NCBI GenBank assembly: GCA_963575745.1
Contig: CAUYUJ010000288.1
Coordinates: 62,001 to 115,757 of the forward strand
From: Prorocentrum cordatum
Lineage: Eukaryota
Length of the DNA: 53,757 nucleotides
Direction of reading: 5' to 3'
Shown: piece after piece, positions 12,364 to 31,969 of the stretch
Layout of the letters: every line of letters starts with the position of its first letter
Position numbering within the stretch: position 1 is the stretch's first letter
Program-made: the position numbers and the translations under genes
The notes under the pieces: model-generated
What the model saw: the letters and a program-made list of their open reading frames with translations, nothing else
Database searches by the model: none
What the model was told of the DNA's origin: nothing

Positions 12364-12380
12364 GAGGAATCGATGATGAT
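12038..12380. repeat. (GAT)n microsatellite
   Basis: Direct inspection. Confidence 0.95.
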
Positions 12381-14941: not shown

Positions 14942-15708
14942 CACTTTGGGGAATTTCGTAAGTGGGGCTCGGAAGTCCCGCCCTACTCTCCAAGCCCCGC
15001 GGGTGCCGATCTCCGCCTTGCGTTTCTGCTGCTGTTCCCGCCCTATACTTCTGTGGATTGCCGCCCCACTTTCTGCTGGGTGCAGAGATTTCCGCCCCAC
15101 CTTTTCGGCCTCTTACAGGTGGATTTCCGACGCTATTTTAAGTTGGACAAAAAAGCCAAAGCAGGGCGGATCTGGTGTCGGGGAGGAGGACGCGATGTAC
15201 CGCGCCCTCCAGGATTGCGCTGGCCTCCCGCGCGCGCTGGACGAGGCGACGGGCGCCCGGAGGGGCTCCTCCCTGGCGCTCCGACCCGGTCTCGACGGAT
15301 CGGTCGAGAGCACGCTGGCCGCGGCAGCCGGATGGCATGTGTGGCGGATTATCACTCGGGTTGGTCCAAAAGGGGGTCCAGCGACAAGGGGGTGGTGCAA
15401 TAGATATAGTGCAATCGATTTGTGGGGTTGCAATACATTTGGGGCGTGCCATACATTCCGGGGCGCAAAGGTATTGCTGGGTCTTCACGTGCAATACGTT
15501 AGTTGCAATACAATGCGATACAATTCTCTGGCGCAATACATTTGCGCGGCAGCCGGATGGCATGTGTGGCGGATTGCCCGCTGCGGGAACCTGACCGACA
15601 CCCTGCTGGTGGAAGTTGGGCGGGCAGCAAGCTTCGGATGCGCGCTGAGGACCGCCAGGGGGGCGCCGGAGCGCTGCTCTGGAGCCGCGGGGCTCGTCCG
15701 CGATTGAG

Positions 15709-15984
15709 GGGCCCACAAGTTCATCGTCGTCTTCTTCGGCGTCCGCGGACTCCGCGGCATCGCCGAGGCTCACCCCGTGGGTGTCCTCGCCCTCGTGCTC
15801 GCGGGTGCCCTTGTTCCTGCTCGTCGCTCTCGCCGGCGGGTTCGCCCAGCGGCTTCTTCAGCTTGGCGGCGTCTTCCACTGCTCCGAGAGCACTGGCGAT
15901 GCCCCCCATCGAGCCCAGGCTTGGCTGATCATGCACGTTTTACCTTCCCGCCCTTCTCGGAGCTCGGTGGGCTCCTCTCTGAGG
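15709..15984 (+). CDS. Candidate upstream exon, N-terminal targeting-like leader of the monooxygenase
   Basis: The frame of ORF 15777 reads GVLALVLAGALVPARRSRRRVRPAASS..ARFTFPPFSELGGLLSEG (hydrophobic then Arg-rich). A GC donor at 15985 is phase-compatible with an AG acceptor at 17666-17667. The start boundary is uncertain. Confidence 0.3.
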
Positions 15985-17667
15985 GCGACCGGCCGGCGGC
16001 GTCAGCGTGGAGCCTCTGAGAGCGCACGTTCGCGGAGGAGGAGGAGGAGGAGGGGGAGGAGGAGGAGGAGGAGGAGGAGGAGGAGGAGGAGGAGGAGGAG
16101 GAGGAGGAGGAGGAGCTCCCAGCGCCTTCCCCTCGGTGCCTTCGCCGCCGTGCAGGCGCCCGAGGTCTGGCGCTGTGGTCTTCTGTGAGGGCGGGCGGCG
16201 TTCAGACCCCCATCGCGTGGTGAAAAAGTCGCGATCCGGGCGGTTTTCCGCCGTTCTCGGCCTCTTTACGGGGCCTCGGGGCCGTCGAAAAAACGATTCG
16301 GGATGAAGAGCCGGTCCCAGGGGAAGGGGTCCAGACCTCTGGGGGTCGACGTGGTGACAAAAAGCCCCGCCGTCGGGGGTCTGGCGTCTCCACCTTTTCG
16401 AGCCGGGCGTTGGCGCTTCTTTTCAGGCCCCGGCACCCTCATAGATCGATCCGGCGCGACAAATGACGCAGAAAGATACACACTGCTCATCTCTAATGCT
16501 TCGAATACTGTTTGATTTCTGGGGGGCCAAGATCCTTTCATTTCTACTTGTTCTATCCTGAGCCTCTTCCTGGTCACTAGGGGGCCGGGAACAATTAGAA
16601 ACGGCCACACTTAGAACTGCGCGCGATTAGACATGAACGACGTGTAGGGTCCTTGCGTAATTCTTATGTGCGCGCAGAATTCGTATGCGCGCGCGCATAA
16701 TTCTTAAGTGCGCGCGCAGAATTCGTATGTGCGTGCCCTCAACTATGAGGCTGATAGGACTAAAAGGAGAAACAGAAAGCCAAGGTCCCGGGCCCCGGTC
16801 GCGAACGTTTGCGATGTTGCAGTGTTTTTGGTGCAGCGTCGGATCTCCGGGCGTGCGGGCGGCTCTCCAGACCCCCTCCGCGTTGTGCACAGCTATCGCG
16901 ATCCGGGTGGTGTTTTTCGCTGCTCTCGGCCTCCGGGGGCCTCTTTAGACGGGGCCTCGGGACCGTCGAACATTGTTCGACGTTGTTACAACGACACAGG
17001 ATGAAGAGCCGGTCCCGGGGAAGGGATCCAGACCTTTCTGTGTCGAAGTTGTGAACAGATCATGGTTTCGGGGGTCTGGCGTCGCAATTCTTTCGAGCCA
17101 GGCGTTTTCGCCTCGATCTTTTCAGGCCCCAGGACCCTCACAGATCGATCCGGCTCGACAGGTGACGCAGAGAGCTGGGGTCTAGGGCTCTGGGCGTGAT
17201 TTCTGCGTGTTGCAATTTTTGAAGCGTCGGATTTCAGGGTATCGTGTAGTGAAAAAGTCTTGGCGGGAGGAGGCTCTTCGCTACTTTCGGCCTCCGGAGG
17301 CCCTGAGCCGGCCCTCGGGACCGTCAACAGAGCAGCTCAGCATGGAAAGCCAGTCCCGGAGAAGGGGTCCAGAGCGCTGGCGCTCCACGTCGTGAAAAAG
17401 CCACGACGCCGGGGCTCTGGGTATCGGAGGGCACACGTCGTGCACCTACACCGATCCTGGCCAGATCCTGGGCCCAGGATCGGTGTACAGACCTTCTTGC
17501 CCAAGCCAGGAAGGTGTGTACACCGACCCCAGGCTCAGAGCCTGACCAGGAGTTGGAGGGCAACGTCCACCTGCCCCTGGAAGACCAACGCTTTTTAGCC
17601 ACAAGCGTCCATGCACACAGGATGTCGCTACGCACATAGACGCAGTCGGGGGCGGACGCGTCTCTAG

Positions 17668-17707
17668 GCAAAGAGGCCGTTGCGTCCCTGCGTTCGGCGC
17701 AGCACAG
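17668..17707 (+). CDS. Candidate short exon (G)KEAVASLRSAQH(R) preceding the Rossmann exon
   Basis: tctctag|GC acceptor. It joins in phase to 18181 giving SAQHRVVIVGAGPGG, but needs an unusual GG donor at 17708. Confidence 0.35.
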
Positions 17708-17993
17708 GGTCGGAGCAAGGGCAGATGCGTCTATGGTATGTTCCTGTTCTAAAGCGGGGTCCTGCATGGTACTCCGAGCCAAGATCTGTGCAGGTGTCTA
17801 GAGGCGTCCTCCCACCGGAGCCCCAGACCCCACCCTTCCGGGCCAGCTCTCGAGCCGGATCCTTCTGTGAGGGCCCTCGGGCCCGCAGCCGGCCGAAGCC
17901 GCCCGTGAAATTGTGAAGACACCGCGGTCTGCCTGGATCTCAGGGTACACCGATCCACGGCCCAGAGCCTGGCCAGGACCGGTGCAGGCGTAT

Positions 17994-18157
17994 TCAGGAG
18001 GGGAAAAAACACACAGACACAATCAATCGTCGATCCCCCAGAAAGTATGGAAAGATATGGGAATTGAGGCGGGAAGACGAAGACTCAGAAAATACAGAAA
18101 AATATGGGGAATCGTTTGATCTGTGTGTGTTTATTTGTGTGTCCTTGGGCCCCTTCA
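17994..18157. mobile_element. Copy of the 5-bp-TSD introner-like element
   Basis: Same termini (TCAGGAGGGG...GGCCCCCTTCA); flanks CGTAT/TGTAT. Confidence 0.8.
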
Positions 18158-18180
18158 TGTATGAGTGGGCGTCCTCCCAG

Positions 18181-18379
18181 GGTGGTCATCGTCGGTGCTG
18201 GCCCTGGGGGCCTGGCGCTCGCGAGCTCGCTGTCCCGCATCCCGGGCCTGGACGTCCGGATCCTGGAGGCCCGGGCGGCCAACAAGGGCAGCGCCCGGTC
18301 CCACAGCATAGGCCTCGGCAGGAGGGCGAGGGAGGCCTTGATCGCCGTGGGCGGCGAGGAGCTGTGGCGCCGCGTCAAG
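18181..18379 (+). CDS. Exon: FAD-binding Rossmann fold (GxGxxG)
   Basis: VVIVGAGPGGLALASSLSRIPGLDVRILEAR..RSHSIGLGRRAREAL; acceptor cccag|G at 18180, GA donor at 18380. Confidence 0.9.
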
Positions 18380-21300
18380 GATCGGCTGCGCGTACAGTCG
18401 GGGCCCTGAAGAAGGAACCCTTTTCGTTGAGGAGGGGCTCCGTGTTCCTTAATTGTGTCGCAGATTGCCTTAGGTTGTCCTTAGGTTTCCGATGGGAAAG
18501 CGAAGTTTAACTTGTGGAAAAAAGGGGCCTCGTTCCTTATTTATCGTTCCTTAGGTCAACGCCCCGACTGTAAGAGTGACCCTTCGCAGGAGTGACCCTT
18601 GGTCCTGTCCTATGGACCCCCTCGAGCCAGGAAGCGACCACGACAGGAGGTGCCTCGCCGCTTTCGGCCTCTGGGGGCCCCTACACCGCGGCGGGCCTCG
18701 GGACCGCCAGAAACAGCGCCTCAGGACGAGAAGCCCTCGGCATCGCTCGGACGTGTGCATTTTTCCTTCGGCGAGGACCATCGAGGAGCATCCTTGATCA
18801 TTTGGCGAAAAGCCACGCACGAAACCGAACAAACACACAGGGAATGGACGTCCGAGCGATGCCAAGGGCGTCGGGGGCCCGCTGAGGCACTGGCTTGCGC
18901 GCTTGGGGCTGGTCCCCCCGCGGCCCCCCCGGCAGCCGCGCGCCGAGGCCCCGGACGGCGTGATTGTTTCGTGGCATGGGCTCCCAGATCTGGACAGCCC
19001 CCGGGACCGGCTTTTCGCCCCGAAGCGTTTCTGGAAGGTGCCGATCGGGCCGGTGCGGGGGCCCCCCGGAGGCCCCGGAGGCCGAGGGACCTCTCGTCGC
19101 GAGCTTTTCCACTTCGCGAGGGGGTCTGGGAGTGGCTCTCGGAAGGTACCCACGAGGTCCCAAGAGAGAGGCCCCCAGCACACCCCGAGTTTCAGTTCCA
19201 CCCCCCTCGGATCCTCGAGGGAGGTGCTGGGCCTGCCCCTCCGGTCCTCCCCTCCTTCCCTGCCCCCTCCATCCCTTCCCCCCCCCCCCCTCCTACTCCT
19301 CCTCCTCCTCCTCCTCCTCCTCCTCCTCCTCCTCCTTCTCCTGTCCAGGGCCACTCCAGCGTGTGGCCGAGAGGAGCAGGGGTTCGTGGCCAGTGGCTTC
19401 TGTCTCCACCTCAACGGCTTCGCCCTGGAGCTGCCGCCCCCCGAGGCCGGCCGGCGAGGTTCACCCAGACCTCCACCGCAGGGAAAGCTTTCGAGGCGAA
19501 GGTTTGCCGTCGTTCCCAGGCCCCCTCGAGTGGCGAAGAAGTCACGACCTATTTTTTTCGCTACCGTCGGCCTCAGGGGGCCCTGACCGGACCTCGGGCT
19601 TGTCAAAAAGCGGCACTGGATAGAAAGCCGGTCCCGGGGAAGGGGTCCAGACCTTAGGGGGTCGACGCTGCGAAAGAACCTCGACGTCGGGGGCCTGGGT
19701 ATTGAAAACATCGAGGCGCAGGTGTTGCATCGTCTTCGGCGTCTCTGGGCCCTCGCTGGGCCCCGGGACAGTCACAAAGAACGGCCTGGGACGAACCCTC
19801 GGTCACCGAGACGTGGCCCAGAGCTCTGGGGACTCCGTATTGAGGCTTACAGGGCCGACCTGCAGGTACCCTGGGAGGGGTTGTGAGGTTTTCCAAAAGT
19901 GGGGTCGTTGGTGCCATTATTATGGCTGTTGGATTAGGAGGTTTGGCCCTTGGCCTGGCTAAGGGCAGTGTAATTATCGGATTTGGGGGGGTGAGATCGC
20001 CGTGAAGCAGACTCGCCCAAGCGGGAAAACGATTTTTCGGTCTCGGCTCGTGTCGTGCGTGGTGTGCGTGCGAGGCGAGGCGATGCGAAGTTGCGCGAGG
20101 GTTTGCTGCAGTAGAGGCCGAAAGCCCAGGATGCGTCGTACTGGCCGCAATAGAGGCTGTACTGGGAGAGGTACTAGTTGTTGTGCCAAGGAGCTGTAGT
20201 ACGAGCTGCGTTAATATATGCAGAGTGCGTTGCAGTAGTAGCTCTTATGAGATCTGCATGTTTGGCCCCACTAGAAACTGCACGGGTCTGTAGTGAGAGC
20301 TGCAGGATTACCTGACGTAGGAGTTTCGGTGGGAGCTGTGCTATTGACTCCAAGAGGTTCTGCAATGGGAGATGTAGCCGGGGATGTAGTAGAGCTGCGG
20401 CAGACGTTGTAACAGATGTATCAACAGCTGTGGTACGAGCTGTAGTGGGAGCTGTGCGAGCTGTATTATTGTTTGTGGTATGATCTGACATCGGAGCTGT
20501 AGTGCGAGCTATGCTGAAAGCTGCGCTGAGCTGTAGAAGGATCTGTCGTAGGAGTTGTAGTGAGAACTGCGTTGCTGTTTGGTGTATGCATTGCTGTTGG
20601 AACTGTAGTGGTATGTGTAGGAGAGCTGCAACAGACGCTGCAGCAGGAACTGTATCAATAGCGTCGGTAGGAGCTGCATTGGGAACTATAGTGGAAGATG
20701 TGCGACTGGCTGTCATATGGATTGTAGTAGTATGTCGTAGGAGCTGTGCGGTGAGCTGTATTGATAGCTGTCTACTGGTTGTCGAAGGATCCGTCGCAGG
20801 TGATGCAGACAGACTGAGCATGCGACGAAACGGGACGGGGGCGGAAGAGAGCAATGAAGACGAGAGTGAAAGATCGGAGGAGCGAGAGTGGCCACGGAAG
20901 AAGAGAAACTGAAATCACCGAGCACGAGGCAACATGTATGATCACCTGGGGGGGGGCGCGAGCACTGATATATGTATATATTTACATAAGCATATATGTT
21001 TACACACGTACATACATACATGCACATATGTGTGTAACTATTATGCATGCACACATCTTTATGAAGTACATATACACGTATATGAACACATGCCAACACA
21101 TGTAACACGTAGTATATGCATATGTGCATCTACCTAGGTGCCAGAACATATGGAGAGGCACTGATCTACATTTGTTGTTTTTTGTTCTCTCTCTCTCACA
21201 CTACGTGTGTTAACACCTGGGCATACACCTACCAATATGTACATACCGCTCGATTGGTAAGTGAACATCCGTTTTGATGTCCCGATATGCGTCCACTCGT

Positions 21301-24300
21301 GAGATGTATTGTGCGTCCTGTGCAAATCAAAAATGGCGTCACCTCCCAAGCCTCCTGATGATCCGAAGCGCGGTCCATGAGGTATGGCTATATACAGACC
21401 TCGTCGCCCTGCCCAGGGGGAGCCCGTTGTGCTGGTGGACCGGTGGAAGATCTGCGAGGCCATCTCCGAGCACATCTCGGACGGGGCCAGGACGAGGATA
21501 AATCCGTTCCAGAGCGCTCCAGAACGCTTTCAGAGCGTTCCGGAACGCTCTGAGAAGGCCGCGGCGCCCGAGACATCCTCCAGAGGTGCCGGATTTTGGA
21601 GATTCTCGATTGATTGGGGATGCGAAAAGGTACCGATACCGCTACTCCCCGGACCTCTCCCAGGGTGCGTTCTGACCAAGATTTCGAGGAGAATCCAGCG
21701 GTGGCGACGAAGGCCTCCCGGGAGGCCCAAATATGGGGGAAACGAGGGAACGGTAGTGGTATGCGTACCTTTTCGCCCTCTCAAGATCAGGAGGGAAAGA
21801 AACACACAGACACAATGAATCGTCGACTCCCAGGAAAATATGCAAAAATATGGGAAGTGGGGGGAAGACAAAAACCCCAAGATATGGGACAAGCATTGGA
21901 GTCTTTTTAGTTGTGTGCATTTATTTGTGTGTCCTGGGGCCCCTTCGCAAGATTCACCCTCGCCCGAATTTGTCCTGGTCTTGGCTTCGTCTCAGCATCG
22001 CGTCGGTGGAGCACGCGCCGGGCACCACGATCGCGGTGGAGAGCGGCGTGCGGGTGAGCTCGGTGGACCTGGTCCAGAGGCGCCTGGCGCTCGACCGCAG
22101 CGCCGCGGCCCCGCAGGAGGTCGGGGGGAGAACGGGGTACCGATCGATGCCGCTGCTCGTCCTGGAGGGCCCTCGTCGCCGCGGGTCCCTCCTCCTCCTC
22201 CTCCTCCCTCCCCCCTCCCTCCTCCCTCCCTCCTCCTCCTTCCTCCTCCATCCCTCATCCTCATCCTCCTCCTCCGCCTCCCCTCTCCTCCTCCTCCCTC
22301 TCCCTCCTCCTCCTCTCCTCTCCTCCTCTCCTACTCCTCCTCCTCCTCCTCCTCCCTCCTCCTCCCCCTCCTCCTCCTCCTCCTCCTCCTCCTCTTCCTT
22401 CCCGCCCAGACCCCCTCGCGTCGTGAAAAAAATCACGCTGGGAGGCTTTTCGTTATTTTCGGCTTCCAGGGGCCCTCGCCAGGCTTCGGGGCCGTCGACA
22501 AAAAGACTCAGGATGAAAAGCCCGTCCCGGGGAGGGGGTCGACGTTGTGGGAAAATCACGACGCTGGGGGTCTGGGGTGGATTCTCCCCGAAGTTGTGGT
22601 CAGAATGCACCCCAGGGGGTGTCCAGGGAGCTGCGGTATCAGTCCCCGCTCGTCCCCGCAGGATAGGCGTCACCCCAACATACTAATACTATGTGCGAAT
22701 CGCCCCCCCGAGGGGCGACGCGCGCATCAAGATATCTCATATAATATGCGTCGTGGCGGGCGCTTTCTGGCCACACCGCTCGGGAAACGATGTACTATAA
22801 GATGGGTATACTTTAGGTTCGGGCCGGACGCGCGCCTCCAAGGAGGACATAAAGTATTAGTATGTCTCTGTGCGTCCCCCACAGGAGGAGGAGGGAGGCG
22901 TGCTGCGGAGCCTGCTCTTGAGCGGGGGCGGTAGCAGCAGCAGCGAGGACACCATGTCGTGGGATCTCCTGGTGGGGGCCAGCGGTGTGCGCTCAACGGT
23001 CCTCAGGAGGGAGAGAAAAAACATAGGCACAATCGATCGTCGATCCCCAGGAAAATGTTGGAAAATATGGGAAGGGGGGGGGGGGGAAGACGAAAACGTA
23101 TAAAATACCAGAGAACATAGGGAATCTTAGGACTTCTATGTACCTATGTGTCATGTGTGTGTCCCTGGGCCCCTTCAGGTCCGCCAGGCGATGAGTACCC
23201 AGTTGCCCGCCAGCGCCTTCGAATCAGAGGTAAAGACGCAGCCAGGTCGCTGGCAGGTGCTCAACATGGGCCTCCCGCCTGCCTTCGTGGCTGGCAGCGT
23301 GCACGCGATGGTAAACTCGAAGGCACCCTTTGGTCTCTTCTGCATCCCCAATATCACCGGCGAACACTGCATCATCGTATCCTGGAGCAACGAGGAGACG
23401 CCCGAGGAGCTGATGCGCGCGAAGACTCCGCGGGAGCTCGAGGATGCCATCCTGAAGTACTTCCCCAAGGTGGGCCACGTCCCCGAGGACGCCGCGAGGC
23501 AGTTTATCGAGAGCCAGGCCTCGAGAGCGGTGTTGAGTCGCTGCCGCCCGTTGCACGATGCAGATGCCGGCGTCTGCGTCCTCGGCGACGCCGCTCACGC
23601 TGTGGGCGGCGGCTCGCTGGGCCAGGGATGCAGTGCTGCGCTGCAGGACACCTTGCGATTGCCACGGTGGGCGCATCCAAAGGAGCCTGCCACTCGAAGA
23701 TTTCTCCACGGGCCTAACAGATTTCTGGGCGCTTTGCAACGCTTAGCATGTCGACGGCAAATGCGCCCCTAGACTTCCTGCAGAACCATGCTGTTCTGGT
23801 TTGCTCTCTTATGACATCGGACCGGCGGCGAGCGAGGGGGCGAAGTGAGAAGGGGCGGGCCTTCTCAGCAGGCCCGGAAGTCCCCTGTCATTCTGAGAAG
23901 TCTTCTAGAGCTCCCCTGGAGACAAAGAAAGCCTCTCAGAAGGCCGGAGGCCTTCTGAGAGGCCCCGCCGCCTTTCTGAGGAGGCCCTCTCCTTGTCACC
24001 TTTCCCCTCCTCGCTCGACGCCGATTGGGGACATGGCGTCTCCCGTGGCCGAGCAGGGGCGGGGGGAGCGGGAGGCAGAGGCGGGTGCGGGAGGGGCGGG
24101 ACAGCGGGAGGGTGGGCAGGGGTCAAGGGGGGGAGGGGGGGGGGCGGCGCAGGGGAGCCAAGAGGGCGAGGGTGAGGTGGGTGAGGTGGGGGCCAGGCCC
24201 AGATCCATACCAAGAGTCAAGGAGTCACCACCCACCAAACCACCCCAACCCAACCCAACCCGAAGGCCCCGAGCTGCCCAGGGGGGGGGGCGCGTCAGGG

Positions 24301-27300
24301 AACAGTCTGGGAAAAACGTGTGGAGCCCGTACCCCTCTCGACCCGAAATCGGGGTCTTCGGGTTGGGCTGGGGTGGACTGGCAGGTAGTCAGCGAGGGAG
24401 CCAGACATGTGGGGAGCACACGGGCGGGGAGGGAATGGGGGGCGGGAGGAAGGGCCCCGGCCGGCCCAGGCCCGAGGGCCTCCGGTGGCCCCTCGTGGGC
24501 TGGGCAGGGAGGGAGGGAGGGAGGGAGGGAAGGAGGGAGGGAGGGGGGAGGGAGGGAGGGAGGGAGGGGGGAGGGAGGAGGAGGAGGAGGAGGAGGAGGA
24601 GGAGGAGGAGGAGGAGGAGGAGGAGGAGGAGGAGAGGAGGAGGAGAGGAGGAGGAGGAGGGAGGAGGAGGAGGAGGAGGGAGGAGGAGGAGGGGGAGGAG
24701 GAGGAGGAGAGGAGGGGGAGGAGAGGAGGAGGAGGAGGAGGAGGAGGAGGAGGAGGAGGAGGAGAAGGAGGAGGGGGAGGAGGGGAGGAGGAGGAGGGGA
24801 GGAGGAGGAGGAGGAGGAGGAGGAGGAGGAGGAGGAGGAGGAGGAGGAGAGGAGGAGGAGGAGGAGGAGGAGGAGGAGGAGGAGGAGGGGGGGGGAGGAG
24901 GAGGGGAGGAGGAGGAGGAGGAGGAGGAGGAGGAGGAGGAGGAGGAGGAGGGAGGAGGAGGAGGAGGAGGAGGAGGAGGAAGAGGAGGAGGAGGAGGAGG
25001 AGGAGACGGAGAGGAGGAGGAGGAGGAGGGGGAGGAGGAGGAGGAGAGAGGAGGAGGAGGAGAGGAGGAGGAGAGGAGGAGGAGGAGGAGGAGGAGGGGA
25101 GGAGGAGGAGGAGGAGGCGGAGGCGGAGGCGGAGGAGGAGGAGGAGGAGGAGGAGGAGGCGGAGGAGGAGGAGGAGGAGGAGGAGGAGGAGGAGGAGGAG
25201 GCGGGCGGAGGCGGAGGCGGAGGCGGAGGCGGAGGAGGAGGAGGAGGAGGAGGAGGAGGAGGAGGAGGAGGAGGAGGAGAGGAGGAGGGAGGAGGAGGAA
25301 GAGGAGAGGAGGAGGAGGAGAGGAGGAGGAGGAGAGGAGGAGGAGGAGGAGGAGGAGGAGGAGGAGGAGGAGGAGGAGGAGGAGGAGGAGGCGGAGGTCT
25401 GGGAGGCGCGGGGAGCGGGCGAGAGGGGAGGGCTCGGGCCCTTGGCTGTCCTGATGCGCCCGTCTTGAGGCGCAGGGCGCGCCGGCCGTGTTCGGAGCGT
25501 TCGTGCTAGCATGCTGCGTGTTGGCTCAACGTGTTTGCCCACGTCTTGGCGATCGTATCGCGTCATTCTATCGGCGAGCGCGTTCCAACGCACGGCCACG
25601 GCCACCGAACCCCAGGGCAGTGGGGCCGCTACGCCCATGCTTTGATTGATAACAACGTCTTCCTTGTCTGCACGCGCGGGACGCTCCCGAGACAGGCTGC
25701 GAAGGGTCCGGCGCGGGGGCCTCGCAAGACGGCGACGGCCAAGTCCGAGACATCTTGCCGCTCTGTGCCGTCCGAGCCCCAGCCCTAACTTACTCGCAAA
25801 CGTTCGAAAAACACCTGTCTGCATTGATGTAAGTTATCGTAGATCCCCCGCGGGGATCCAGGCCATCTGCGAGTAGCTACTTTACGAGTCGTGGAACGCG
25901 CTCGTCGATTCTAGGCCTCCTAGATGGGGTCGGAGTAGATGGGGTCGGAGGATCGCGCCGCATCGCCGAGACATCGCCGATACGGCTCGATGTGCAGCCC
26001 GCTTTGCTTCACGTCAACGTCGCCGATGCATCGCCGAAGCCGACGATGCATCGCCGGTGTATCGCCGATGCGTCGCCGATGCATCGCCGATGTATCGGCG
26101 ATGCGGCGCGATCCTCCGACCCATCTACTCCGACCCCACCTAGGAGATCTCTAGTCATACATGCGTTTTCCGTCTTGCGCGTGGAGCTCCGTGCCAGTAC
26201 GCCACGTGTGGCGTGTTGCGTATCGGGGCGCAGCTAGGCTCAGGTCCTGTGCGAGTCTTCGGGCCGCGGAGCCCCGGTCTTTCAGAACCTCGTCTTGGGC
26301 GAGTTCCAGGCGGGGTCGTGGGTTTCGGTGGAAGGTCTCAGGAGACCCACCGCTTGTAGGACACAGAGGACACAGAGGCAGGGGAAGTTCAAGGAAGACA
26401 CTGGATGGTGGCAAATGGCGCCACCAGGTATTAAGGCCAGAGTTGTGGAGGTACGTTGGCACTTCTCCCTGCGGCCGTCGTCGTTGGCCGAGGGAAAGCG
26501 GGAGGGGGGGGCGGGGGGGAAGGGCGGGCGAGGAGGAGGCGAGGGGGAGGCGAGGGGGACGCAGCGTTCGGGCCGCAGGACGCCGCGGCGCTGGGCCAGT
26601 GCCTGCTGGATGCCCAGGCGGCGGAGGGGCTGCCGGAGGAGGCATCGGAGGGCTTCCACGCGGCCCTCTCGGAGGCCCTGGCGGCGTACTCCGAGCGGCG
26701 CGCGGAGGAGGGCTGGGCGCTGCTGGACCTCATCGAGCTGCAGGCCGCCAACGAGCTGCGCGCGGGCGCGCTGCTGCAGGGGCCTGTGGTGATGGGGTTC
26801 CTCATCGAGCAGGTCGCCCGTGGGTCCCTGAAACCCCTGGCCGAGCTGGGGTCGCGCATGCTCGGCGCGCGGCTGCAGAAGAACGAGAGCTTCATCAGCA
26901 GCGAGCTCGACGCGGTGCCCCTGCTGGGCCTCCTGCACGAGCGGGTGGCGCTGGGCACCTGGAAGCGGTTCTTTGACGGCGTGGCGAGGCTCAAGCCCGA
27001 CATGCAGACCGCGCTGATGGCCACGGACGAGCCGTACAGCGAGCTGGTGAACCGCAACACGGCGTGGCTGGAGCTGCTGCAGGTCTCGAGGGATTCCTTC
27101 GGGGCGCAGCAGGTGCAGGTCGTCCGCGGCATCGAGGTTCTGAGGCCGGAGGGCGCCAGCGGTACACCTGCACCGATCTTGGTCAGGCCGCTCCCGGGGC
27201 CCAGGTTCGGTGTGAACATACACATGTTTTTATATATACACGTACACTGAGATAATGCAATGGGTGGCACTATCATACAATACAAGACGATATGCTACAG

Positions 27301-28770
27301 CACAGCATTACAGAACGTAATGTATTATAGCACACTGCACTGCTATACAACTGACGGTTATATCCTATATCAAAGCATACCAGAGTATGATGTAATGCAG
27401 TATGATATGGCACAACATAACATTATACAACAGTATTGTACGTTGCACTATATTACGTCAGAATACTAAACAATAGTGCACAGCAGCATAACATGCATCA
27501 GCACATCATGCTACAATGCATTATGCAATACCATATTGTGTTACCCTATCAAGCAAGACAACATACCATAGTAGGATAGTATGTAGCGAACTTGGATATA
27601 TGTATATTACACACATATATATAAACAACTATACGTGTGTACGTATGCCGTGCCGTATCATCGCATATGACAAGAACTCATCGTGCAGCAGATGACATAT
27701 CAGGTAATATGGCAAATAAAGGTTTCGACAGTGCGTATGCAAACATCTATACAAACGTATACTATAATGCAACTACTAGTGCACCTTATGGCTATGTTTA
27801 ACATAGCACTGTCGATTAGAACAGTATGTATTGTATACTGCTATGCTTTCAGGTGGTAAAGTATTTTGACATTTGATATTCGGCAATGTACCATTATTCG
27901 AGATAGGATAACAACATACAGGACACTATAAACTAATATTGTGTCATACCATCTCGTATCATATATTACGAGATGCAACGACATTACACTACATCGTATT
28001 ATTATAGACGAGAGTGATACAGACACCTCTCTATATAGATGCATGCTTGCGTGTGTGTATGTATATATATATATATATATATGTTGCTGTATATACATGC
28101 GTACATTGATGTATACATATCAATACGCCTGCCTGGTCCGGCCAAAGCCAGGAAAGCGCATCTGCACCGATCCTGGGCTGAGGACGGACCTGGCCAGGAC
28201 CGATTGAGGTGTGTACGCTGGGCGCCCTCCTACGAGGGGCCTCCCGGACTCGACGCTGCTCGACTGGGCCGCGGCCTTCACCCCGCAGGAGCGGCTCCAG
28301 GGCGACGTCATCGTGCGCCAGGCGGTCTCGGTCAAGAGCTTCTTCGCCATCCGCTCCGGCACCTGCACGGTGCTGAGGGACGGGGCCGAGGTCGCCACGC
28401 TCGGCCCGGGCGACCACTACGGGGGCATCGCGCTGCTCCTGGGCGTTCCGAGCTCCACCTCGCTGGTGGCCTCCACCGACGCCGGCCTTCCTCACCCACC
28501 AAGCCACCCCAACCCGACCCGAGGGCCCCAGTGCGCCCTCCGTTCCCCGTGGGGGGTCGTCGGGGAACAGTAAAAAACATACAATTTGGGTCTTCGGGTC
28601 AGGTAGCGGTGGTCCGGTGGGGAGTCAGGCCTCCTCGAGATGCCGCGCGAGGTGTTCCTGCGCCTGGTGGAGAGGCAGGGGCCCGAGCTGCGGGCCGCGC
28701 TCTCCGCGCCGGCAGACCGCTTCCACCTCGGGCTGGACGGCGTGGCCAGCGAGCAGGAGCGAGAGAGACA

Positions 28771-28839
<69 letters not shown>

Positions 28840-31800
28840 GGTCGTCGTCGTCGTCGTCGCCGTCCCGGCAGGGAAGGCCAGAGGGGCTTCCTCGGTGGAG
28901 CGCGGGCGGGGCAGCAGGAGGATGCGGCGGCAGGAGGAGGAGGAGGGGGAGGTGGAGGAGGAGGAGGAGGACAACAGGAGGAGGAGGAGGAGGAGGAGGA
29001 GGGAGAACAGGAGGAGAAGGAGGAGGAATCGGAATCGTAATCGAAGGCATAATCGGAGTCGGAGTCGGAACAGCCGCGCGAAGTATATCAACAAGTGAAC
29101 GCCATCCCCTGCCGCCTCAACCATCGATGCACACGACGATGCCCGAGAATAGGAGCTGCAATGCACAGGGCGATGGAGTCCAGCAACACGTGCACGACTA
29201 ACACGACGAAGAAACCCAAGGAACAAGTGTTTGATACTTCGAATCGAATGAATTCCTCCCCACATGAACGCGGCCTCCACGCAGGCAACTAATTCACACC
29301 GCTTCGACAACAACAAGTATCTTCTATCCCGCACCAGCCACAAAAGTGCGGTACGACCACACGATACGAGCAACTCCCAATCCACCACGCAGAGCGAAGC
29401 GCACGAACAACACCGCGAGTCGAGACGACACAGTTCCGAACCACAACCACACAGCTGCGCCGGCATGCAACCCATGCACCTGAAGTGACGAAGTAGACTG
29501 GGCACCACCCTGGTACTATGCACGGTGATTTCGGACATGCGAAAACCAATTGGCCAAACAATTTTGAATGTTAGGGTACGCTGCGACTGCCCGCTCTCAC
29601 CAGGCGAGATTATCCTAGCAGTGCAGCAGCAGTAGCAGCAGCACAACAACAACACAAGAAACCAATCGAATCGTATGCCATGCCGTCCTTGGCGGTGAAC
29701 CACTTGGGCGAGCCCCTGGCCGTCCGACCACCAAAGAGGGCTGTATACCCACCAACAAATCCCATTATGTGAACAGGCTCAGGCCAGCATGGTACACTGC
29801 ACAAGACATGCGTTCAAACGTAAGCCTTTCACCTCCTCGCGGTGAGCCACGAGGGCGAATCTCTAGCTCTCCGCCCGCAAGGGGGGGGCGACGTACAAAC
29901 TGGCAGGTCCTAGTTTGTGCACTTACTACGAGCAACCCATTCTGAACTCACACCACCATATACTGACGCGCCGTGCCGGTATCCTCCAAGCTGTCCTGCC
30001 TCTGGCCAAGGCCCAGTCACCTACCAATCCTGGATGTCCAATCGCAGGAGGCATCACCTATGTCACCTCGCTTAGATTCAGCCACCACGATCGACAGTGC
30101 ACGGGCATTGCAGGCGAGTTGGCACTCGAGGACTCTCCTCTGATCCGTCCCTCTCCAGTCCCCCCCCCTCCGTTTACTTGTTCTCCTCCTCCTCCTGCTT
30201 TTCCTCCTCCTCCCCCTCCTCCTCCTGGTTCTTCTCCTCCTCCTCCTCCTCCTGGTTCTTCTCCTCCTCCCCCTCCTCCTCCTGGTTCTCCTCCTCCTCC
30301 TCCTCCTCCTCCTTCCAGGCTTCGTTCACTCCTCCTCCTCCTCCTCCTCCTCCTCCTCCACCTACCCTTCTCCTCCTCCTCCTCCTCCTCCTCCTCCTCC
30401 TCCTCCTCCTCCTCCTCCTCCTCCTCGTGCCCAGCGTGAAGGCATCGAGGTGCGACTCGGGGCCAAGGGATACGCTGGAGTGCATGCGGGAGCCTGGGCC
30501 ACATGTGCTCGAGCCCCGCCGCAGGAGCGGGGAGCCCCCCGCCGAGGGCGGCGCCGCGCAGGAGGAGAAGGAGGAGGAAAGGAGGAGAGGAGGAGAGGAG
30601 GAGAGNNNNNNNNNNNNNNNNNNNNNNNNNNNNNNNNNNNNNNNNNNNNNNNNNNNNNNNNNNNNNNNNNNNNNNNNNNNNNNNNNNNNNNNNNNNNNNN
30701 NNNNNGTGGAAAAGGAGGAGGAGGAGAGGGAGGAGGAGAAGGAGGAGAAGGAGGGTGAGGTGGAGGAGAAGGAGGAGGAGGAGGAGGAGGAGGTCGAAGA
30801 GGAGGAGGAGGAGGAGGAGGAGGAGGAGGAGGAGGAGGAGGAGGGTCCCATTCGAGGGCGCCCTGGCGCGCGCGCACGTGCTTCCGAAGGGCTCCTCCCC
30901 CTCCGTGCGCAGGAAACTGCGAGGAGCAGGGTGCGCTCCCTGCTGTCGGGCCGGCCCGAGCTCGCCGCCTGGGCGGAGGAGCACCTCGACGCGGCCGTCT
31001 GCGAGATCCACGCGGAGGGTGAGGTCTAAAAAAAAAGCGAAAGGCACAAGCTGTGAGTCGGGCCTGTCCCCCTACAGGGGGATATTTCGGCGAAAAATCA
31101 AAAAAATACCCCCAAAAATGGCCAAACAAGAATCCAAAAATAGTCTGGGGACTATTCTTTGAGTATTTTTTGGCCTTCTTGGGGTATTTCTGTTTTTTAT
31201 TTTTCGTCGAAAATCCCCCTGTAGGGGGACACGCCCGACATAACACAAGCTTACATTTTCGGAGGACCGCGCGGATTTCTTGGATCGCCGCCGGGGAGGG
31301 GGCTTCAGCGCCGATGCAGGGCGTCTGCGCGGAGCTCCGAGAGTTTTCGTCCGTGCAGTTGTTCTCTTACGGTGGGGGCGTTCGTCAAGGCATGTGCCCA
31401 GGATGCTTCAGGCCCCTGGAGGGTTCCTCACCTGATGATGGCGGCGGCGGCGGCATCCATGGCCAATCCACGATTGGAGTTCGACTGGCCTCCAGACCCT
31501 GGATTCCTTATCCAGGGGCTCCCTATCCAATGCCCTCACAGTATTCGAGGTCGTCACGCTGGACGAGCGAGAGAGCCTTCGACTCTTGGAGTGCGGGTCC
31601 GCCTCCGTGGTGCTCCGAGGCGCCGAGGTGCGCCGCCTGAGTCCTGGGGACTTCTTCGGGCCAGGCCTGCAGCCCGGGGAGCAGGTGGAGCGCTTCAGAA
31701 AGGGACTCGCCTGCGAGGCATCGAGGGGGTCCATCTCCTCCTCGGCGGGCGTCGGCGGAAGGGCGACGCAGGCCGGCGGAAGTCAGACGAGGCCCGCTCC

Positions 31801-31969
31801 GCTGGCGGGAGGAGAGAGTTGCCTCGCAAAAGATGCCCACCTTAGGGTTTCCCGCACCCGCCAGGTGGTGGCAAGAAGCGATCAGACCTTGGTGTGCAGA
31901 TTCCACAGCAGCGCGTCCGGCGCGATACTTGCGGGCATCGCCTCGGCGGCCGAGGTGGCCGCGCGCTGA
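18181..31969 (+). CDS. Multi-exon gene: KMO-like FAD-dependent monooxygenase fused to two C-terminal cyclic-nucleotide-binding-like domains (5' end incomplete)
   Basis: Hand-spliced exons 18181-18379, 19374-19445, 21417-21490, 21996-22116, 22885-22998, 23179-23646, 26579-27144, 28237-28484, 28629-28756, 30913-31018, 31542-31684 and 31865-31969 join in phase (2344 nt, ~780 aa) to a TGA at 31967-31969. Motifs occur in the expected order: GAGPGG, DLLVGASG..STVR, GDAAH..GQG..ALQD, PYSE, then two CNB beta-roll motifs. All acceptors are AG; donors are GT, GC or GA. Confidence 0.85.
18395..18570. mobile_element. 176-bp MITE, Tc1/mariner-like, intronic
   Basis: TA|CAGTCGGGGC...GCCCCGACTG|TA. Confidence 0.85.
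19374..19445 (+). CDS. Monooxygenase exon EQGFVASGFCLHLNGFALELPPPE
   Basis: Phase-0 AG acceptor, GC donor at 19446; bridges the neighbouring exons in frame. Confidence 0.65.
20150..20780. repeat. Degenerate GAGCTGTAGT-type repeat, intronic
   Basis: Recurrent GAGCTGT/GAGCTGC units. Confidence 0.6.
21417..21490 (+). CDS. Monooxygenase exon GEPVVLVDRWKICEAISEHISDGA
   Basis: cccag|G acceptor; the VDR..(L/I) segment matches the conserved Arg of flavoprotein aromatic hydroxylases; GA donor at 21491. Confidence 0.75.
21787..21947. mobile_element. Copy of the 5-bp-TSD introner-like element
   Basis: TCAGGAGGG...GGCCCCTTCG; perfect TSD CAAGA (21782-21786, 21948-21952). Confidence 0.85.
21996..22116 (+). 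CDS. Monooxygenase exon ..TTIAVESGVRVSSVDLVQRRL..
   Basis: Strand-like segment preceding the DG motif. Boundaries are approximate: CAGGAGG at both intron ends allows a GA donor at 22117 or a GT donor at 22120. Confidence 0.6.
22678..22865. mobile_element. Probable MITE (TIR ACATACTAATACT), intronic
   Basis: 13-bp perfect inverted termini; single copy in the window, TSD unclear. Confidence 0.55.
22885..22998 (+). CDS. Monooxygenase exon with DG-type motif (WDLLVGASGVRST)
   Basis: Matches DLL(I/V)GADGxxSxVR once spliced to VRQAM at 23179; GT donor at 22999. Confidence 0.85.
23003..23177. mobile_element. Introner-like element with 5-bp TSD, forming an entire intron
   Basis: TCAGGAGGG...GGCCCCTTCA flanked by GGTCC (22998-23002 and 23178-23182); homologous to 17994-18157 and 21787-21947. 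Confidence 0.85.
23179..23646 (+). CDS. Monooxygenase exon with GD motif
   Basis: ..CRPLHDADAGVCVLGDAAHAVGGGSLGQGCSAALQ; cttcag|G acceptor, GA donor at 23647. Confidence 0.92.
25917..26146. mobile_element. Foldback MITE-like element with ~55-bp inverted arms and internal CATCGCCGATG repeats
   Basis: CTCCTAGATGGGGTCGGAGTAGATGGGGTCGGAGGATCGCGCCGCATCGCCGA is mirrored by TCGGCGATGCGGCGCGATCCTCCGACCCATCTACTCCGACCCCACCTAGGAG. Confidence 0.7.
26579..27144 (+). CDS. Monooxygenase C-terminal exon
   Basis: DAAALGQCL..ALAAYSERRAEEG..DEPYSEL continues the GD motif (ALQ|DAAAL). GCAGGAC occurs at both intron ends; GC donor at 27145. Confidence 0.88.
28237..28484 (+). CDS. Exon: first cyclic-nucleotide-binding-like domain
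   Basis: GLPDSTLLDWAAAF..QGDVIVRQ..FFAIRSGTCTV..EVATLGPGDHYGGIALLLGVPSSTSLVASTD fits the CNB (CAP/PKA-R type) pattern. Confidence 0.88.
28629..28756 (+). CDS. Exon: end of CNB domain 1 (LLEMPREVFLRLV) and linker
   Basis: Phase-1 junction CCG|GC..cag|GCC; typical beta8/hinge 'll.l.r..F..l'. Confidence 0.8.
28771..28864. repeat. (GTC)n microsatellite, intronic
   Basis: Direct inspection. Confidence 0.95.
30606..30705. other. Assembly gap (100 N) within a GGA tract
   Basis: Run of N. Confidence 1.
30913..31018 (+). CDS. Exon: N-terminal helices of CNB domain 2
   Basis: ETARSRVRSLLSGRPELAAWAEEHLDAAVCEIHAE; gcgcag|G acceptor, GT donor at 31019; 3' junction uncertain. Confidence 0.6.
31053..31243. 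mobile_element. hAT-like MITE copy 3, intronic
   Basis: Same TIRs; perfect 8-bp TSD CACAAGCT (31045-31052, 31244-31251). Confidence 0.85.
31542..31684 (+). CDS. Exon: core of CNB domain 2
   Basis: EVVTLDERESLRLLECGSASVVLRGAEVRRLSPGDFFG parallels domain 1 (IRSGTCTVLRDGAEVATLGPGDHYG). Confidence 0.78.
31865..31969 (+). CDS. Last exon VVARSDQTLVCRF..AAR*
   Basis: CAGGTGG at both ends of a 180-nt GT-AG intron (31685-31864); matches CNB beta7-beta8; ends in TGA. Confidence 0.65.
   Translation: MVARSDQTLVCRFHSSASGAILAGIASAAEVAAR

What the first reader, a model, noticed from the sequence alone, without database searches (positions are those of the whole stretch)
18181..31969. KMO-like flavoprotein monooxygenase fused to tandem cyclic-nucleotide-binding-like domains
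Seen: twelve exons splice in phase, carrying all three class A flavoprotein hydroxylase fingerprints followed by two CNB-type beta-roll domains. The fusion junction (..RGIEVLR|GLPDSTLL..) reads as the normal start of a CNB domain. Known: KMO/UbiH-type hydroxylases are usually single-module enzymes, and tandem CNB domains are regulatory modules as in PKA-R/PKG. Inference: this may be a ligand-regulated monooxygenase, an architecture I do not recognise as characterised. It is invisible in the ORF track because of the non-canonical introns.
Basis: partly seen in the sequence, partly recalled or inferred. Interest (0 to 1): 0.85.

Follow-up and report, generated by a model that had tools for sequence, protein, structure and literature searches.

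The report
Dinoflagellate monooxygenase fused to sensor-like domains
This is a real, expressed dinoflagellate gene that joins a kynurenine-monooxygenase-like flavin enzyme to a cyclic-nucleotide-binding-type sensor domain that lacks the key phosphate-binding residue, so what it senses and what it oxidises are unknown.

Summary
A 12-exon gene (18161-31969, + strand; 2325-nt CDS, 774 aa) of Prorocentrum cordatum encodes a class A flavoprotein monooxygenase, a helical domain, one clear CNB domain and a degenerate second CNB-like beta-roll.

- **One transcript:** single RNA contigs of 1645-2799 nt in 4 of 4 runs laid (two are polyA RNA-seq) join exons 7 and 8. Contigs of three runs run on through exon 9, and the fourth run has that joint on a separate 200-nt contig. 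Loose ends reach exons 6 and 10.
- **Conserved:** the same architecture occurs in Scrippsiella, Symbiodinium, Cladocopium, Durusdinium and Effrenium at 49-58% identity. There it carries automatic names such as 'kmo'. My literature searches found no paper describing the fusion.
- **Mis-annotated here:** the public model for this locus (386 aa) lacks the catalytic domain and is in the wrong frame at both ends.
- **Interpretation partly supported:** KMO is the closest solved enzyme, but the residues that hold L-kynurenine (R84, Y98) align to invariant Phe and Val. The phosphate-binding Arg of CNB1 is Ser in 23 of 23 relatives and in the window. The second roll has no phosphate-binding helix.

My reading is a KMO-like hydroxylase of unknown substrate with a sensor or allosteric module that is probably not a canonical cAMP/cGMP receptor. 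It is a new variant of known kinds and of moderate interest.

The parts
18161..18379 (+). Exon 1: in-frame ATG at 18161; GxGxxG FAD-binding fold (GAGPGG at 18194-18211)
   Evidence: Pfam FAD_binding_3 25.8 bits (cut-off 22) and NAD_binding_8 28.2 bits on window:18068-18406. tblastn E 1e-24 to P0006. Donor GA.
19374..19445 (+). Exon 2: carries the family-invariant GF.LHLNG motif; its Phe aligns with KMO Arg84
   Evidence: tblastn, splice scan, alignments to KMO.
21417..21496 (+). Exon 3: GEPVVLVDR motif; its first Val aligns with KMO Tyr98
21996..22127 (+). Exon 4: part of the substrate-domain beta-sheet
   Evidence: The borders are the least certain of the model: the top splice-scan scores are within 1 unit of each other.
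22938..22998 (+). Exon 5: DG-type motif LLVGASGVRST, with Ser in place of Asp; the motif is completed in exon 6
23179..23646 (+). Exon 6: substrate domain and the GD motif (GDAAH... from 23584)
   Evidence: tblastn E 3e-68, 70% identity to P0007. The last 30 nt before the junction appear as the loose end of RNA contigs that precede exon 7 in 4 of 4 runs.
26579..27144 (+). Exon 7: family-specific helical domain between the hydroxylase and CNB1; ends ..GIEVLR
   Evidence: Covered without mismatch by RNA contigs in X1, X10 and X12, and with 1 difference in X5. 100% identical to P0001. The model of homologue P0004 shows long helices at 346-529.
28237..28484 (+). Exon 8: CNB1 beta-roll; phosphate-binding-cassette region at 28403-28474 (GPGDHYGGIALLLGVPSSTS), lacking both Glu and Arg
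   Evidence: Pfam cNMP_binding 39.2 bits. RNA joint 27144/28237 in 4 of 4 runs. Cassette columns.
28629..28756 (+). Exon 9: end of CNB1 (last strands and B/C helices) and the linker
   Evidence: RNA joint 28484/28629 in 4 of 4 runs.
30913..31023 (+). Exon 10: helical lead-in of the second roll
   Evidence: The loose end behind 28758 matches 30915 onward. tblastn, splice scan.
31550..31684 (+). Exon 11: core of the second, degenerate CNB-like roll (..GDFFGPGLQPGEQV..); no cassette helix
   Evidence: tblastn E 7e-13. hhalign of CNB1 against CNB2: 95.4% probability with a 5-residue gap at the cassette helix. No Pfam hit.
31865..31969 (+). Exon 12: last strands, C-terminal helix, stop codon TGA
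22999..23178 (+). Intron 5: filled almost entirely by one copy of a dispersed repeat of about 165 nt, which also supplies the acceptor
   Evidence: the repeat finder families D4 and D7; alignment of the three copies.
30606..30705 (.). Assembly gap (100 N) inside intron 9; no exon is hidden in it, because the RNA goes from exon 9 straight to exon 10

Best explanation
The region is one expressed nuclear gene of Prorocentrum cordatum with 12 exons and mostly non-GT introns. It encodes a soluble 774-aa protein with four parts.

1. Residues about 1-345: a class A FAD-dependent aromatic hydroxylase whose nearest characterised relatives are kynurenine 3-monooxygenases.
2. Residues about 346-525: a long helical domain in the position of KMO's C-terminal domain.
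3. Residues about 530-655: a well-formed CNB-fold domain.
4. Residues about 660-774: a shortened second CNB-like beta-roll without a phosphate-binding helix.

Shown:
- The gene structure around the fusion.
- The single mRNA.
- The domain identities.
- Conservation of the whole architecture across core dinoflagellates.
- The loss of KMO's kynurenine-binding Arg and Tyr.
- The loss of the CNB cassette Arg.

Inferred:
- The enzyme hydroxylates an aromatic substrate other than L-kynurenine, probably one without an alpha-carboxylate.
- The CNB module acts as an allosteric, sensor or assembly module. It would couple through the helical domain to substrate access or to flavin reduction.
- If the module binds a ligand, that ligand is not held like cAMP or cGMP.
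For: Gene and fusion:
- In three runs (X1, X10, X5) one contig of 2364-2799 nt carries exons 7, 8 and 9. In X12 a 1645-nt contig joins exons 7 and 8, and a separate 200-nt contig joins exons 8 and 9.
- Both joints were seen in 4 of 4 runs. X10 and X12 are polyA RNA-seq.
- Loose ends equal to the end of exon 6 and the start of exon 10 extend these contigs.
- The pieces of the three long contigs fit the model. Exons 7-9 should sum to 942 nt, and the pieces span 948 nt including 6 ambiguous bases.
- The X10 contig has 1058 nt before exon 7, against 1028 expected from the ATG.

Conservation:
- The spliced protein aligns end to end with 9 full-length or near full-length relatives at 49-58% identity.
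- It keeps 225 of 250 family-invariant columns.
- 9 of 14 hits and 15 of 20 hits carry both PF01494 and PF00027.
- Named members come from Scrippsiella, Symbiodinium, Cladocopium, Durusdinium, Effrenium and Prorocentrum.

Hydroxylase module:
- Pfam FAD_binding_3 scores 51-85 bits on the eight relatives that carry both domains.
- KMO is the best solved match: E 2e-12 for a single sequence and 1.4e-18 for the profile. The next non-KMO monooxygenase is at E 5e-3.
- The Foldseek hits listed through rank 34 are all KMO chains, with target TM-score 0.68-0.80. The query was a model of mean pLDDT 87 and pTM 0.83.

Not a kynurenine enzyme:
- PMC5477544 (passages read) states that R84 forms a salt bridge with the L-Kyn carboxylate and that Y98 hydrogen-bonds the amino group.
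- Two independent HMMER alignments put R84 on the invariant Phe of GF.LH and Y98 on the invariant Val of EPVV.

CNB1:
- VIA Z is up to 19.3, with rmsd 1.8-3.5 A over 123-144 residues, on a model of P0002, which is 89% identical to the window protein.
- Cassette Arg position: Ser in 23 of 23. Cassette Glu position: Glu in 15 of 22, and Gly in the window.

CNB2:
- hhalign to CNB1 gives 95.4% probability.
- All 30 named ESM-feature hits are cNMP_binding clusters, the best three scoring 0.95.
- Foldseek alignments of about 250 columns span both rolls of PKA-R and PKG.
Against: - Nothing biochemical is known about this protein. Substrate, cofactor content and ligand are all inferred.
- The DG-motif Asp is Ser in this species, and the cassette Glu is Gly. 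The Prorocentrum copy could therefore be impaired or work differently from the Symbiodiniaceae and Scrippsiella copies.
- The R84/Y98 mapping rests on low-identity alignments (about 19-20%). I could not read model coordinates to check the pocket.
- Seven of 11 junctions and the 5' end have no direct RNA support here.
- A repeat copy that abuts the ATG leaves room for an upstream exon.
- Both structure models are of homologues (P0004 at 57% identity, P0002 at 89%), not of the window protein itself.
- CNB domains without the Arg can still bind cyclic nucleotides weakly, or bind other ligands, so cNMP binding is not excluded.
Confidence: 0.65

Rival explanations
1. One reading: a cAMP- or cGMP-regulated monooxygenase, in which tandem CNB domains bind a cyclic nucleotide as in PKA-R or PKG and switch the hydroxylase on or off.
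For: - CNB1 passes Pfam's cNMP_binding cut-off (39.2 to 66 bits).
- It has a full CNB fold (Z up to 19.3).
- Its closest solved relatives by sequence are cGMP-dependent kinases of apicomplexans (E 8e-30 with the profile).
- The Ala equivalent to RI-alpha A202 is kept, so a phosphate is not sterically excluded as it is in kinetoplastid PKA-R.
- Gly-Glu of the cassette is kept in 15 of 22 relatives.
Against: - The cassette Arg, which neutralises and hydrogen-bonds the cyclic phosphate (PMC10959531, passages read), is Ser in 23 of 23 relatives and in the window.
- The window also lacks the Glu.
- The second roll has a 5-residue deletion in place of the cassette helix and no Pfam match.
Confidence: 0.15
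2. A genuine kynurenine 3-monooxygenase of the tryptophan-to-NAD pathway, as the automatic database names say, that merely carries an extra C-terminal extension.
For: - KMO is the best match by sequence and by fold.
- Sources name family members 'kmo' or 'Kynurenine 3-monooxygenase'.
Against: - R84 and Y98 of KMO align to invariant Phe and Val.
- Identity to KMO is only 18-21%.
- No hydrophobic C-terminal anchor is present: the maximum Kyte-Doolittle 19-residue mean is 1.33.
- The nearest stand-alone relatives (P0028-P0045) also have Phe at the R84 position, so they form a KMO-like but distinct clade.
Confidence: 0.07
3. In Prorocentrum the protein is a pseudo-enzyme or scaffold. It keeps the fold but has lost efficient flavin or NADPH handling (DG Asp to Ser) and ligand binding (cassette Glu to Gly).
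For: - The window has Ser, and P0004 and P0006 have Asn, where 9 of the 11 relatives that cover the column have the DG Asp.
- The same lineage lacks the cassette Glu.
Against: - 225 of 250 family-invariant columns are kept, and most of the 25 changes are conservative.
- The reading frame is intact over 12 exons.
- The gene is transcribed in 4 of 4 runs laid.
- GxGxxG and GD are intact.
Confidence: 0.1
4. Two separate neighbouring genes (a hydroxylase and a CNB protein) wrongly joined, or a chance run of open frames.
For: The public model P0001 starts only at the end of exon 6 and holds no FAD domain.
Against: - Single RNA contigs bridge exons 7 and 8 in 4 of 4 runs and continue upstream into the exon 6 sequence for about 960-1060 nt.
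- Full-length transcripts of other dinoflagellates have the same collinear architecture.
Confidence: 0.02

Closest known systems
Kynurenine 3-monooxygenase (KMO; Pseudomonas fluorescens, yeast, rat and human structures, e.g. 5x6p, 6fox, 4j36, 6lkd, 5x68)
   Same: - Class A FAD hydroxylase fold.
- Best sequence match (E 2e-12 to 1.4e-18) and best fold match (target TM-score up to 0.80).
- The RSxxxxL / RRxxEAL region after the first beta-alpha-beta is shared.
- A C-terminal helical domain follows the catalytic core.
   Different: - L-Kyn-binding R84 is Phe and Y98 is Val, both invariant in the family.
- Identity is only 18-21%.
- There is no membrane anchor.
- A helical domain of about 180 aa and two CNB-type rolls are appended.
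Tandem CNB modules of PKA regulatory subunits and PKG (e.g. 1rgs, 4z07, 5dyl, 5j3u)
   Same: - Two successive CNB-type rolls with helical lead-ins.
- Foldseek aligns about 245-288 columns across both.
- CNB1 superposes at Z 17-18.5.
- Apicomplexan PKG is the best sequence match.
   Different: - The cassette Arg is absent in roll 1.
- Roll 2 has 6 rather than 8 strands and no cassette helix.
- The relative orientation of the domains differs (rmsd about 17 A over both).
- The module is attached to an oxidoreductase, not to a kinase or kinase-inhibitory segment.
Cyclic-nucleotide-independent PKA-R of kinetoplastids (6flo, 6hyi; PMC10959531, passages read)
   Same: This is a precedent for a CNB fold in which the phosphate-binding Arg is replaced by a small polar residue (Thr or Asn there, Ser here) while Gly-Glu is kept. 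There the ligand is a nucleoside instead of a cNMP.
   Different: The kinetoplastid ribose-binding Glu that replaces RI-alpha A202 is not present here: Ala is kept. So the kinetoplastid nucleoside-binding solution is not copied, and the ligand remains unknown.
VioC and other KMO-like class A hydroxylases (NCBIfam NF053548)
   Same: VioC is the best NCBIfam model for the hydroxylase part (56-74 bits on the family, 112 bits on the stand-alone relative P0028).
   Different: The scores are far below the curated cut-off (760 bits). The protein is not an equivalog of any NCBIfam enzyme.

Membership tests
Class A flavoprotein monooxygenase (Pfam FAD_binding_3, PF01494) | N-terminal GxGxxG beta-alpha-beta FAD-binding fold | tested here: met
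   GAGPGG at residues 12-17. Pfam FAD_binding_3 scores 25.8 bits (cut-off 22) on exon 1 alone.
Class A flavoprotein monooxygenase (Pfam FAD_binding_3, PF01494) | DG motif (recalled consensus ..DGxxSxxR) serving FAD and NAD(P)H binding | tested here: inconclusive
   The motif is present as LLVGASGVRSTVR, with Ser where Asp is expected. It is Asp in 9 of the 11 relatives that cover the column, and Asn in P0004 and P0006. The role of the Asp is recalled, not tested.
Class A flavoprotein monooxygenase (Pfam FAD_binding_3, PF01494) | GD motif contacting the FAD ribityl chain | tested here: met
   GDAAHAVGGGSLGQG...D at residue 324 onward, invariant in the family.
Class A flavoprotein monooxygenase (Pfam FAD_binding_3, PF01494) | Whole-domain profile score and fold | tested here: met
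   Pfam scores 51-85 bits on the eight relatives that carry both domains. Foldseek top hits are KMO, PHBH and MHPCO with target TM-score 0.62-0.80. Both tests were run on relatives, not on the joined window protein.
Class A flavoprotein monooxygenase (Pfam FAD_binding_3, PF01494) | NAD(P)H- and O2-dependent hydroxylation with bound FAD | not testable with these tools
   Needs biochemistry.
Kynurenine 3-monooxygenase | Arg84 (salt bridge to the L-Kyn carboxylate) and Tyr98 (hydrogen bond to the amino group), P. fluorescens numbering (PMC5477544) | tested here: not met
   Two HMMER alignments (single sequence, profile) place R84 on Phe of GF.LH and Y98 on Val of EPVV. Both are invariant in the family.
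Kynurenine 3-monooxygenase | C-terminal domain 3 donating Tyr404 and Asn369 to the active site | tested here: inconclusive
   A helical domain follows the core, and Foldseek aligns up to 550 columns to PfKMO. No residue-level mapping was possible.
Kynurenine 3-monooxygenase | C-terminal membrane anchor of eukaryotic KMO | tested here: not met
   No 19-residue window reaches Kyte-Doolittle 1.6; the maximum is 1.33. This is a crude test.
CNB domain (Pfam cNMP_binding, PF00027), first roll | Profile score above the gathering cut-off, and an 8-stranded roll with helical flanks | tested here: met
   39.2 bits on exon 8 and 52.7 bits on P0001, which covers the window's exons 7-9. VIA Z is up to 19.3 on the P0002 model.
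CNB domain (Pfam cNMP_binding, PF00027), first roll | Phosphate-binding-cassette Arg | tested here: not met
   It aligns to Ser in the HMMER alignment with PKG. It is Ser in 23 of 23 relatives covering the column, and in the window.
CNB domain (Pfam cNMP_binding, PF00027), first roll | Cassette Gly-Glu (ribose 2'-OH contact) | tested here: not met
   The window has Gly-Gly. Among relatives the position is Glu in 15 of 22.
CNB domain (Pfam cNMP_binding, PF00027), first roll | Binding of cAMP or cGMP | not testable with these tools
   Needs a binding assay.
CNB domain, second roll | Recognisable CNB profile and cassette helix | tested here: inconclusive
   There is no Pfam hit at E <= 0.1. Against that, hhalign to CNB1 gives 95.4% probability and E 2e-8 with a 5-residue gap at the cassette helix. 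All 30 named ESM hits are cNMP_binding clusters, the best three scoring 0.95.

The most novel reading that the evidence does not exclude
This would be the first ligand-gated class A flavoprotein hydroxylase. A CNB-fold sensor that has given up the cyclic-phosphate Arg (invariant Ser) would bind a non-cNMP metabolite. It would transmit that signal through the KMO-type C-terminal helical domain to gate substrate access or flavin reduction. Dinoflagellates would thereby have a metabolite-switched oxygenase for an as yet unknown aromatic substrate.
Probability: 0.25. Interest if true: 0.8.

Novelty: new variant of a known kind. Interest (0 to 1): 0.58.

Why it matters
- **Enzyme regulation.** From recall, class A flavin hydroxylases are normally controlled only by their own substrate. 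A conserved fusion to a CNB-type sensor would add an allosteric input to this enzyme class.
- **CNB ligand range.** It would add one more effector type and one more non-cNMP variant to the CNB superfamily, next to kinetoplastid PKA-R.
- **Annotation.** The family is labelled 'kynurenine 3-monooxygenase' in several Symbiodiniaceae genomes, although the kynurenine-binding residues are missing. Pathway reconstructions of tryptophan and NAD metabolism in coral symbionts that rely on these names may therefore be wrong.
- **This locus.** The public P. cordatum model lacks the catalytic half and the second roll. It is a clear case of how GA and GC donor introns defeat gene callers.

Tried and rejected
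- **Whole genome.** None is held for this window, so paralogues and a canonical KMO in this organism could not be sought.
- **Earlier findings.** Three look-ups returned nothing.
- **Flanks.** Pfam on 97 long, non-repetitive stop-to-stop frames outside the gene, on both strands, gave 0 of 97 hits at E <= 1e-4. Neighbouring genes were not identified. Short exons make this test weak.
- **Second roll in the window.** Pfam on the window's own pieces (31439-31966, 31023-31637, 31225-31842) gave no hit.
- **Full-length protein for this species.** Searching with exon 6 ('longer') and exon 7 ('longer') found no full-length P. cordatum protein. Only the truncated P0001 was found.
- **Other fused lineages.** Longer hydroxylase hits in the representative search (P0158, P0096, P0112, P0128, P0124) were checked for a CNB domain. 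None of the 5 has one.
- **VIA second look.** It tested only CNB1 (model residues 93-240) and says nothing about the second roll.
- **Literature.** Four searches on the fusion found no paper describing it. One search was badly framed, because dinoflagellate terms alone satisfied it. PMC4217691 and PMC3679056 were checked by passages and do not mention the fusion. Subscription journals are not covered.
- **Depth.** Absence of depth over introns was not used as evidence.

Full report
**What the window is.** The best match of exon 7 is a 386-aa 'unnamed protein product [Prorocentrum cordatum]' at 100% identity (P0001). The window is therefore dinoflagellate nuclear DNA. It is GC-rich (0.51-0.70 in 2-kb steps) and full of simple repeats. 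No whole genome is held for it.

**Checking the observation.**
- Pfam on these pieces finds FAD_binding_3 and NAD_binding_8 on the first piece (25.8 and 28.2 bits). It finds cNMP_binding on 28208-28570 (39.2 bits against a cut-off of 27.5).
- tblastn of three full-length relatives finds 12 collinear blocks.
- A scan of G[T/C/A]...AG splice pairs, scored against five relatives, fixes the borders.
- The resulting CDS is 2325 nt (774 aa) and has no internal stop. Donors are GA x5, GC x3 and GT x3. All 11 acceptors are AG, and every spliced exon ends in G.
- The protein aligns end to end with nine relatives at 49-58% identity. It aligns with two C-terminal fragments (P0002, P0003) at 89% and 83%.
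- It keeps 225 of 250 columns that are invariant in the family.

**RNA evidence.**
- Of 24 runs listed, 18 hold part of 26400-28800, at shares of at most 0.35. That is what the three exons alone would give.
- I laid four runs on 25500-28768. X10 and X12 are polyA RNA-seq. X1 and X5 are guessed to be RNA.
- In X1, X10 and X5 one contig (2364, 2457 and 2799 nt) covers 26575-27141, skips to 28234-28483, and skips to 28628-28758. In X12 a 1645-nt contig joins exons 7 and 8, and a separate 200-nt contig joins exons 8 and 9.
- Allowing for the 4 and 5 bases that fit both sides, the joints are 27144/28237 (GC..AG) and 28484/28629 (GC..AG).
- The loose end before 26575 is window 23613-23642, the end of exon 6.
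- The loose end behind 28758 is window 30915 onward, in exon 10. It is exact in X1 and has one T>G difference in X10 and X5.
- These give junctions 23646/26579 and 28756/30913, both with GA donors.
- Contig lengths fit the model. X10 has 1058 nt before exon 7, against 1028 expected from ATG 18161. Four hundred and fifty-one nt follow exon 9, against 349 expected to the stop codon.
- The remaining 7 junctions and the 5' end have no direct RNA support here.

**The public model is wrong.** P0001 begins 'MQCCA' in another frame of exon 6. It reads exons 7-9 correctly. It then joins exon 9 to exon 10 two bases off from what the RNA contigs show, and it ends in a wrong frame. It therefore shows only PF00027. 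No protein of at least 274 aa in the collection holds exon 6 at more than 71% identity. The hydroxylase half of this locus therefore appears in no protein of at least 274 aa in the collection searched.

**The hydroxylase module.**
- GxGxxG and GD are intact. The DG-type motif is LLVGASGVRSTVR, with Ser for the usual Asp. It is Asn in P0004 and P0006 and Asp in the other 9 relatives that cover the column.
- By sequence, the best solved hydroxylase matches are KMO chains: E 2e-12 with P0004, 1.4e-18 with the family profile, and 2.4e-9 with the CNB-less fragment P0005. The next non-KMO monooxygenase is at 5e-3.
- An AlphaFold model of P0004 (57% identical to the window protein) has mean pLDDT 87.1 and pTM 0.83.
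- Its Foldseek hits listed through rank 34 are all KMO chains from P. fluorescens, yeast, rat and human, with target TM-score 0.68-0.80. MHPCO and p-hydroxybenzoate hydroxylase follow.
- NCBIfam gives only far sub-threshold hits, the best being VioC at 56-74 bits against a cut-off of 760.

**It is KMO-like but probably not a KMO.**
[quoted passage not shown] Y404 of domain 3 also contacts the substrate.
- In a single-sequence alignment and a profile alignment, R84 falls on the Phe of 'GF.LHLNG' and Y98 on the first Val of 'EPVVLVDR'. Both are invariant in the family.
- The nearest stand-alone hydroxylases found (P0028-P0045, 385-582 aa) also carry Phe there. The fused enzymes thus belong to a KMO-like but distinct clade.
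- No hydrophobic anchor is present.

**The C-terminal module.**
- After long helices (P0004 residues 346-529) comes CNB1.
- A model of P0002 (mean pLDDT 80.9) superposes on CNB domains of HCN, SthK, MloK1, PKA-R, PKG and CRP. Z is 16.6-19.3, with rmsd 1.7-3.7 A over 120-144 residues.
- Foldseek aligns about 245-288 columns to tandem-CNB proteins, but at about 17 A rmsd. Both rolls are matched in series with a different mutual orientation.
- The second roll gets no Pfam hit.
- Even so, its profile matches the CNB1 profile at 95.4% probability (E 2e-8), with a 5-residue gap exactly where CNB1 has the cassette helix.
- All 30 named ESM-feature hits for P0004 655-775 are cNMP_binding clusters, the best three scoring 0.95. 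This is a lead, not a proof.
- In the model the second roll has 6 strands and no cassette helix.

**The ligand site.**
- In the HMMER alignment with Plasmodium PKG, the cassette '..FGEAAL....QRSAT..' pairs with '..FGSVAL...VPSSTS..' of P0004. Arg pairs with Ser and Glu with Ser.
- Across 24 family sequences the Arg position is Ser in 23 of 23 that cover it. The Glu position is Glu in 15 of 22, with Gly 3, Ser 2, Asp 1 and Ala 1. The window has Gly and Ser.
- PMC10959531 (passages read) states that this Arg neutralises and hydrogen-bonds the cyclic phosphate in PKA RI-alpha. It also states that kinetoplastid PKA-R, where the Arg is Thr or Asn and A202 is Glu, binds nucleosides instead of cAMP.
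- The dinoflagellate family shares the loss of Arg but keeps Ala at the A202 position. It is therefore a different variant, and its ligand, if any, cannot be named.

**Distribution.**
- A profile search over 1.84 billion representatives gave 108 hits at E <= 1e-30.
- The only full-length fused representatives were P0015 (882 aa) and P0016 (974 aa), plus fragments. Multi-CNB proteins and stand-alone hydroxylases followed.
- Five longer hydroxylase hits that I checked have no CNB domain.
- Cluster members carry names from Symbiodinium microadriaticum, other Symbiodinium strains and S. necroappetens, Cladocopium goreaui, Durusdinium trenchii, Scrippsiella acuminata and Effrenium voratum. The names are automatic, such as 'kmo', 'Kynurenine 3-monooxygenase' or 'Cyclic nucleotide-binding domain-containing protein'.
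- All named members are dinoflagellates.

**How it most likely works.**
- Shown: one polypeptide links a KMO-like FAD hydroxylase, a helical domain and a CNB-type module, and this arrangement is conserved.
- Inferred: in KMO the C-terminal domain closes the substrate channel and completes the active site (PMC5477544). Here the equivalent helical domain leads straight into CNB1. A conformational change of the CNB module could therefore be passed to substrate access or to the substrate-triggered flavin reduction typical of class A enzymes (the latter is established knowledge, recalled).
- My odds for the module: about 0.15 that cAMP or cGMP is the ligand, about 0.4 for another small ligand, and about 0.4 for a ligand-free structural or assembly role.
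- The substrate is probably an aromatic compound without the amino-acid head group of kynurenine.

**Novelty.** The sequences are public and the two Pfam domains are visible on them, so the family is not unseen. I found no paper that describes or tests the fusion (passages). The library does not cover subscription journals. I rate it a new variant of known kinds.

Noticed in passing
window 17994-18160, 21787-21946, 23004-23178: Three copies of a dispersed repeat of about 165 nt (72-84% identity to the first copy). The third copy fills intron 5 (22999-23178) almost completely and supplies its acceptor (...CCCCTTCAG). The second lies in intron 3. The first abuts the start codon at 18161. It looks like an introner-type element. 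The first copy raises the question whether a further intron and upstream exon lie 5' of 18161.
   Followed up: partly
window 23620-23646 and 26579-31640 (public model P0001): The public 386-aa model for this locus reads exons 7-9 correctly. It starts in a wrong frame of exon 6 and joins exons 9 and 10 two bases off from the RNA contigs. It therefore lacks the FAD domain and the second roll.
   Followed up: yes
window 25908-26123 (intron 6): In all 4 runs, short pieces (31-57 nt) of other RNA contigs, some abundant (depth up to 298.6), match here with loose ends on both sides. The region holds a 15-nt and an 11-nt tandem repeat (25921-25950, 26020-26104). It is probably a repeat shared with other transcripts.
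   Followed up: no
window 24506-25397 and 30183-30844: Intron 6 holds an 824-nt (GGA)n array (278.7 copies). Intron 9 holds inverted (CTC)n / (AGG)n arms (30183-30314 against 30712-30843, 85% complementary) that flank the 100-N assembly gap at 30606-30705.
   Followed up: no
window 26914, 28280, 28389, 30918: Single-base differences between RNA contigs and the window: G>A at 26914 in X5, A>T at 28280 and A>C at 28389 in X10, and T>G at 30918 in the loose ends of X10 and X5. These could be strain, allele or paralogue differences.
   Followed up: no
relatives: cluster of P0166 (Durusdinium trenchii): Four family members of 879-893 aa have near-consecutive accession numbers. Three of the four sit on a contig listed at the same length, which suggests a tandem array. 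A 1479-aa Symbiodinium microadriaticum entry in the P0008 cluster is probably a merged gene model.
   Followed up: no
window 1-17900 and 32000-53757: None of 97 long, non-repetitive stop-to-stop frames in the flanks, on either strand, has a Pfam hit at E <= 1e-4. The neighbouring genes remain unidentified.
   Followed up: partly
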